Made by a program: the position numbers and the translations under genes. Shown here piece after piece: positions 4,837-62,031 of a stretch of DNA of 64,000 nt. Positions within the stretch are counted from its first letter, which is position 1, and each line of letters starts with the position of its first letter. Source of the stretch: Eledone cirrhosa (lineage: Eukaryota); the NCBI GenBank assembly GCA_964016885.1, contig OZ024752.1, positions 34,968,001 through 35,032,000 of the forward strand. The letters run 5' to 3'. Below the pieces are notes generated by a model. That model was not told the DNA's origin and did no database searches. It saw only the letters and a list, made by a program, of their open reading frames with translations.

Positions 4837-5085
4837 TTATCGAGAAGTTGTATTGAACTGCATGAAATAGGCAGCCGTTGGAGAGTTAGTGTACACCTCT
4901 TTATTTAAAAACTCTTGATGAGCCTTCTGCTCTTGAGCAAGTCTTCGATTCTCGTCTGCTAGTTGTTCAAGACAATTCCTCTGATTTCGGTTCAGTTCTC
5001 GTTCCACAAGTATACCAGATCTAGCCTGTCTAACACGCAATTGATCCCAGTTATTATTTAATTTTTCTTGTTCATTTCTTATTTT
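4837..5085 (-). CDS. RIBC2: RIB43A/RIBC exon 5 (terminal, ends [14 protein letters not shown])
   Basis: Acceptor ttgcag|AAA; 249 nt including TAA. Confidence 0.92.

Positions 5086-62031: not shown

What the first reader, a model, noticed from the sequence alone, without database searches (positions are those of the whole stretch)
4837..62031. Head-to-head SMC1/RIB43A(RIBC) gene pair mirrors both human pairs SMC1A-RIBC1 and SMC1B-RIBC2
Seen: a cohesin SMC1 gene and a ciliary RIB43A gene diverge from a 426-bp, transposon-free gap, although their introns are saturated with repeats. Known: human SMC1A/RIBC1 (Xp11) and SMC1B/RIBC2 (22q13) are both head-to-head pairs. Inference: if this is a mollusc, the divergent pair predates the protostome-deuterostome split and survived heavy genome rearrangement, which points to a constrained shared promoter linking a cell-cycle gene and a motile-cilium gene.
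Basis: partly seen in the sequence, partly recalled or inferred. Interest (0 to 1): 0.75.

Follow-up and report, generated by a model that had tools for sequence, protein, structure and literature searches.

The report
Ancient cohesin–cilium head-to-head gene pair
An octopus carries its chromosome-cohesion gene SMC1 and its cilium gene RIB43A back to back, 426 bases apart, as vertebrates and three worm sequences also do, so the pair is likely inherited from the common ancestor of these animals, though it is missing in many other animals and probably works as two adjoining promoters rather than one inseparable switch.

Summary
Confirmed. An intact RIB43A gene (379 aa, minus strand) and an intact SMC1 gene (1,248 aa) of an octopod diverge from a 426-bp gap. 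Spliced contigs from four runs reach into the gap from both sides and none crosses its centre. The pair is already listed for eight vertebrates, including both human copies (PMC2871058, Table S5). Added here: the same arrangement, with gaps of 407-583 bp, in 3 of 26 informative metagenome loci. These three are probably one annelid group. The other 23 (annelid-, bivalve-, coral- and sponge-like) show no SMC1 in 0.65-6 kb upstream. The gap holds two motif sets. An RFX X-box lies 111 nt before RIB43A; it is also present in 21 of 29 unpaired loci. An E2F-like site lies 113-121 nt before SMC1 in all four paired loci. Best reading: an ancestral bilaterian pair of back-to-back promoters, kept mostly because the breakable spacer is tiny, and separable. 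Obligate co-regulation is not shown. This is a new member of a known kind (about 600 ancient pairs are described) and may already stand in a supplement I could not read.

The parts
4837..20836 (-). RIB43A (RIBC) gene, 5 coding exons: 20836-20720, 13609-13528, 8489-8026, 7062-6835, 5085-4837; 379 aa
   Evidence: exon 1-2 splice seen as a loose end matching exon 2
20837..20880 (-). RIB43A 5' leader covered by a spliced contig of the run with identical sequence (minimum extent; contigs do not show the start site)
   Evidence: run X15
20935..20947 (.). RFX X-box-type palindrome GTTGCCAAGCAAC, 111 nt before the RIB43A ATG
   Evidence: strict pattern (recalled consensus) in 0 of 5,000 shuffles of the gap, 2 sites in the window; same position in other animals; binding not tested
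20987..20996 (-). CCAAT box (NF-Y type), reading AGCCAATCAG towards RIB43A, 40 nt upstream of the X-box
   Evidence: 1.6% of shuffles; CCAAT at -200..-110 in 7 of 32 loci (no shuffle control); binding not tested
20997..21148 (.). A+T-rich spacer of about 150 bp between the two motif sets
   Evidence: sequence; role inferred
21149..21160 (+). E2F-like site TTCGCGGTAAAA, about 113 nt before the SMC1 ATG
   Evidence: same place (-119 to -121) in three annelid-like loci; motif defined after the fact; binding not tested
21161..21262 (+). SMC1 5' leader covered by spliced contigs (ends at 21161, 21174, 21158, 21108 in four runs)
21263..62031 (+). SMC1 gene, coding exons 1-23 of 28; continues to base 5224 of neighbouring locus L063; 1,248 aa
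   Evidence: exon 1-2 splice seen

Best explanation
[quoted passage not shown] Inferred mechanism: RFX (with NF-Y) at the X-box drives RIB43A in ciliated and sperm-forming cells, and an E2F-family factor at the other end drives SMC1 in dividing cells; both share one open, unmethylated patch. The pair would persist mainly because only about 150 bp can break or take an insertion without hitting a promoter. When it does break, RIB43A leaves with its X-box and both genes survive, which would explain the patchy distribution.
For: Shown: gene models and splicing. The 900-bp tile over the gap has the highest CpG observed/expected of 71 tiles, 1.71 against a median of 0.47. The same orientation with 407-583 bp between ATGs occurs in L003, L004 and L008; L003 and L008 fall in a 14-row clade with named annelids, support 97. 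Both human pairs are listed with 80 and 272 bp between genes and in 8 vertebrates. An X-box at -170..-46 occurs in 22 of 33 sequences against 0.46 expected by shuffling and 0 of 25 in a distal control; 21 of the 22 have no SMC1 beside them. The E2F-like 10-mer occurs in 4 of 4 paired loci at -113 to -121, 0 of 29 unpaired loci, and once in the window; a match as good at that place and strand arose in 0.3% of shuffles. Ribc2 is treated as an Rfx2 target in Xenopus (PMC3889689, passages); mouse Smc1b has an E2F6 site TCCCGC (PMC8195999, passages). Homologs of two genes recalled as neighbours of the human Xp11 pair lie on other contigs (IQSEC C27, HUWE1 C21), so only the pair is shared.
Against: No invertebrate deuterostome was tested, so ancestry rests on vertebrates, one octopod and probably one annelid group. 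All motif roles are sequence matches; patterns were recalled or tuned after seeing the hits. The octopus site differs from the worm 10-mer at 2 of 10 positions; such a match occurs somewhere in 15% of shuffles and within 1 kb in 5 of 24 unpaired loci. The three paired worm loci lack a full X-box (0 of 3), which does not fit two fully independent modules. A gap staying under 600 bp in three phyla despite heavy repeat load hints at some selection for closeness. Absences cover only 0.65-6 kb of upstream DNA.
Confidence: 0.6

Rival explanations
1. The pair is ancestral and is held by selection on true co-regulation: one bidirectional element, probably E2F/NF-Y centred, couples SMC1 and RIB43A in germ cells or ciliated-cell progenitors.
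For: Both vertebrate paralogue pairs kept the arrangement. The gap stayed under 600 bp in three phyla. Paired worm loci lack a full X-box. A human study hypothesises that one haplotype co-regulates RIBC2 and SMC1B (PMC12960220, passages).
Against: Not seen in 23 of 26 informative loci, one with a different gene upstream on the same strand (L059) and one with a different head-to-head partner (L062). RIBC1/2 peak in spermatids (PMC12842877, passages) while SMC1A is described as broadly expressed (PMC8470780, passages on platypus).
Confidence: 0.3
2. The adjacency arose separately in vertebrates and in spiralians (or in each group), for instance by RIB43A landing beside an open housekeeping promoter.
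For: Patchy distribution: none of the coral-like or sponge-like loci, the bivalve-like L001, several annelid-like loci, or Ciona, nematodes, insects, Daphnia, Nematostella, Trichoplax and Monosiga in the 2010 survey show it.
Against: The same two unrelated genes meeting in the same orientation within 600 bp two or three times is improbable (inference). Irimia 2012 treats such pairs as very unlikely to arise independently and shows heavy loss in flies, nematodes and Ciona (passages). Several genomes in the 2010 survey had very reduced gene sets.
Confidence: 0.08

Closest known systems
Vertebrate divergent pairs SMC1A-RIBC1 and SMC1B-RIBC2 (Davila Lopez et al. 2010, PMC2871058, Table S5 rows 142 and 148)
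   Same: Same two gene families, head to head, under 1 kb apart (272 and 80 bp in human).
   Different: Listed there for 8 vertebrates only. Here single-copy genes in an octopod and three annelid-like loci. The human intergenic DNA could not be fetched, so motif homology with vertebrates is untested.
Conserved ancestral microsyntenic pairs, CAMPs (Irimia et al. 2012, PMC3514665): 595 unrelated gene pairs, e.g. HSP60/HSP10
   Same: Unrelated genes, 5'-5' orientation, gap under 1 kb, shared across phyla.
   Different: CAMPs need 4 of 11 lineages; I show three phyla. The partners have no shared function, unlike HSP60/HSP10. Whether this pair is in their Table S2 could not be read.
RFX/X-box ciliary gene promoters (PMC5838959; PMC3889689; bioRxiv 10.1101/085571)
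   Same: Imperfect palindrome close to the start of a motile-cilium gene, seen from sponge-like to octopod sequences.
   Different: Here it sits about 200 bp from an E2F-like site facing the other way. Binding is not shown.
EIF2S1-ATP6V1D head-to-head pair (PMC13508932, passage)
   Same: Functionally unrelated head-to-head pair with a shared intergenic region.
   Different: That pair is vertebrate-specific and near-universal there; this one is older and patchy.

Membership tests
SMC1 cohesin subunit | N-terminal Walker A, hinge, signature motif and Walker B in a chain of about 1,230 aa | tested here: met
   motifs at residues 33, 1136, 1162; 1,248 aa
SMC1 cohesin subunit | Closer to SMC1 than to other SMC proteins | tested here: met
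   SMC1A E 1e-32, fungal SMC1 1e-18 to 1e-10, SMC4 4.5e-5; one exon, no tree built
RIB43A / RIBC | PF05914 over the whole chain, about 379 aa, grouping with animal orthologues | tested here: met
RIB43A / RIBC | Octopus gene is co-orthologous to both RIBC1 and RIBC2 | tested here: inconclusive
   single match in the genome and hits to both in PDB; the tree held one vertebrate row only
Bidirectional promoter pair | Head-to-head genes with 5' ends under 1 kb apart | tested here: met
   contig ends at 20880 and 21161 (weak for exact start sites)
Bidirectional promoter pair | Shared cis-elements needed for both directions, or co-expression | not testable with these tools
   contig depth cannot rank genes; needs reporter or expression atlas
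CAMP (Irimia 2012) | [quoted passage not shown] | tested here: inconclusive
   three phyla so far; their Table S2 unreadable
RFX-regulated ciliary gene | X-box near the start, conserved in position | tested here: met
   (sequence match only)
RFX-regulated ciliary gene | RFX binding or loss of expression on mutation | not testable with these tools
   shown only for Xenopus Ribc2 in the literature

The most novel reading that the evidence does not exclude
A promoter older than 550 million years couples the cell-division programme (E2F, cohesin) to the motile-cilium programme (RFX, RIB43A) through one shared element. The E2F site beside SMC1 in octopus and worms is the forerunner of the E2F6 site that confines vertebrate SMC1B to the germ line, and lineages that broke the pair or eroded the X-box are natural experiments on that coupling.
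Probability: 0.2. Interest if true: 0.7.

Novelty: new member of a known kind. Interest (0 to 1): 0.42.

Why it matters
It moves a pair catalogued only in vertebrates back to the bilaterian ancestor and shows that it survived the reshuffled cephalopod genome. Because the gap is small, has two readable motif sets, and exists in both joined and separated states among annelids and molluscs, it is a compact test of an open question: are ancient head-to-head pairs kept by co-regulation or simply because they are hard to break? The human SMC1B/RIBC2 promoter region is also tied to aneuploidy risk (PMC12960220).

Tried and rejected
5' UTR introns: both ATGs have an acceptor-like AG just upstream, but contigs run through both without a joint; rejected for those contigs. 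No run was on record as RNA; the contigs laid are judged RNA-derived because their loose ends match exon 2. Contig depths of the two genes differ widely between runs, but depth cannot rank genes; not used. No listed substitution falls in the E2F-like site in run X10, but 7 of that contig's 17 differences are unlisted; not used. Testing adjacency in named genomes by accession number failed: RIB43A accessions were obtained, but the SMC1 search returned nothing and the fragment look-up gave no named mollusc or annelid SMC1. CHR (TTTGAA) and forkhead words are at chance level or absent in the gap. The ataxin-10 family search rang nowhere; uninformative. Pfam scan of 125 upstream frames from 20 unpaired loci found only a TLC-domain and an adenylate kinase gene. 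The careful tree did not finish; the quick tree is reported. Earlier-findings look-ups gave nothing on this pair. Paper searches for the pair in invertebrates: listings only, nothing on it; 0 papers.

Full report
Observation. The window lies on contig C12 of a 3.0-Gb genome. RIB43A starts at 20836 on the minus strand and SMC1 at 21263 on the plus strand, 426 bp apart. RIB43A has five GT-AG exons and 379 aa, the length of its animal orthologues, and matches PF05914 in 4 of 4 exons scanned. SMC1 has 23 exons in the window in one open frame and five more in the next 5.2 kb, giving 1,248 aa with all ATPase motifs. Its hinge exon is closest to SMC1A. Each gene gave one match in the genome. RIB43A places the animal among octopods.

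Transcripts. Contigs from four runs, one with identical sequence and three from relatives, cover exon 1 of both genes; their loose ends match exon 2 in all four runs for RIB43A and in three for SMC1. In the identical run they stop at 20880 and 21161. No contig covers 20881-21107. Contigs cannot fix start sites, so this is a weak hint that both starts lie in the gap. The gap is the CpG-richest of 71 tiles. It is repeat-free, but so are the nearby intron ends and 184 of 1,136 same-sized windows.

Distribution. Table S5 of PMC2871058 (rows seen) lists both human pairs and finds them in 8 vertebrates. Its species list (Table S1, read whole) includes Ciona, two nematodes, three insects, Daphnia, Nematostella, Trichoplax and Monosiga, several with very reduced gene sets, and no mollusc or annelid. 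A scan of metagenome contigs with RIB43A exon 1 gave 62 loci. SMC1 lies head to head in 3 of 62: L003, L004, L008, with 425, 583 and 407 bp between ATGs. I dropped 17 intronless, mRNA-like loci and one with 3 bp upstream; the other 44 form 32 clusters, 26 with at least 650 bp upstream. So 3 of 26 carry the pair. L003 and L008 sit with named annelids (support 97, quick tree); L004 is unresolved, but its SMC1 start closely resembles that of L008. They differ by 22-28% in exon 1 and share motif spacing, so I count them as one lineage. The 23 negatives include annelid-like loci (many probably one subgroup), a bivalve-like locus (1.56 kb), a clade next to Lingula, coral-like (up to 6 kb) and sponge-like (up to 4.6 kb) loci. 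SMC1 further away is not excluded. Homologs of IQSEC and HUWE1, recalled as neighbours of the human Xp11 pair, lie on other contigs.

Anatomy of the gap. A palindrome matching the recalled strict X-box consensus lies at 20935-20947; none of 5,000 shuffles had one. With a looser pattern chosen after seeing the hits, 22 of 33 sequences have an X-box 46-170 nt before the RIB43A ATG, against 0.46 expected and 0 of 25 further upstream: the window, 21 of 29 unpaired loci and 0 of 3 paired worm loci. A CCAAT box lies 40 nt upstream (1.6% of shuffles). On the other side the worm loci share TCCCGCTAAA at -119 to -121 from the SMC1 ATG, and the window has TCGCGGTAAA at -113. The merged pattern is in 0 of 29 unpaired loci and occurs once in the window. 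Judged by the worm word alone, the octopus match arises anywhere in 15% of shuffles and at that place in 0.3%, and 5 of 24 unpaired loci have an equally good match within 1 kb. It is a fair but not strong match. TCCCGC is the E2F6 site of mouse Smc1b (PMC8195999, passages); Ribc2 is handled as an Rfx2 target in Xenopus (PMC3889689, passages).

How it most likely works. Shown: two intact genes, leaders inside the gap, two motif sets each facing its own gene, and the X-box present without SMC1 in most animals sampled. Inferred: RFX with NF-Y drives RIB43A, an E2F factor drives SMC1, and the pair lasts because about 150 bp of spacer is a small target for breakage (0.6). The rival, selected co-regulation, keeps 0.3: the gap stayed short in three phyla, both vertebrate copies kept it, the paired worms lack a full X-box, and a human study suspects joint control of RIBC2 and SMC1B (PMC12960220, passages). 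Convergence gets under 0.1.

Comparison and novelty. The kind is well known: Irimia 2012 (PMC3514665, passages) describes 595 such pairs and names neither gene in its main text. Its Table S2 could not be read, nor Table S4 of PMC2871058 (too large); either may list this pair in invertebrates. PMC9023564 (passages and 7 supplement files) and PMC13508932 (passage and 2 supplement files) do not mention RIBC. Searches (listings) showed no paper on the pair outside vertebrates. Also seen as passages only: PMC5838959, PMC12842877, PMC8470780, PMC8616139, bioRxiv 10.1101/085571.

Verdict. Real, probably ancestral to bilaterians, new member of a known kind, interest 0.42. The added value is the second protostome lineage, the evidence that the pair is separable, and a promoter layout that can be tested directly.

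Noticed in passing
window 31762-34998 (-): A 1,078-aa open frame that reads like a LINE endonuclease/reverse transcriptase with a cysteine-rich insert, in SMC1 intron 3; a 3' fragment of the same element at 27441-28088 (identity read by eye).
   Followed up: no
window about 14600-19900: Minisatellite of roughly 47-bp units filling about 5 kb of RIB43A intron 1.
   Followed up: no
window 54476-57562, 41924-43210, 12050-13460: Tandem arrays of 54-bp, 92-bp and 3-bp units; the 54-bp array leaves frames of over 1,000 codons open on both strands.
   Followed up: no
window 20963-20972 and 21175-21184: The word GGCTGCGTGA occurs twice in the gap and nowhere else in the window; not part of the blocks shared with the worm gaps.
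   Followed up: partly
L003, L004, L008 intergenic gaps: The three worm gaps share TTGTTTA at exactly -85 from the SMC1 ATG and a GCGC-rich palindrome near -135, and lack a full X-box.
   Followed up: partly
L062:3-791 (-): A divergent RIB43A has another head-to-head partner, an adenylate kinase with a weak Tex55-like match.
   Followed up: partly
L059:2787-3050 (+): A TLC-domain gene lies upstream of RIB43A on the same strand, a clear case of the pair being absent.
   Followed up: partly
window 13610-20719 and loci L001-L060: The RIB43A intron after codon 39 appears in the octopus, the bivalve-like and the coral-like loci but not in most annelid-like ones, judged from BLAST segment ends.
   Followed up: no
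window 49873-50928 (+): A second, different reverse-transcriptase-like frame of 351 aa in SMC1 intron 16 (read by eye).
   Followed up: no
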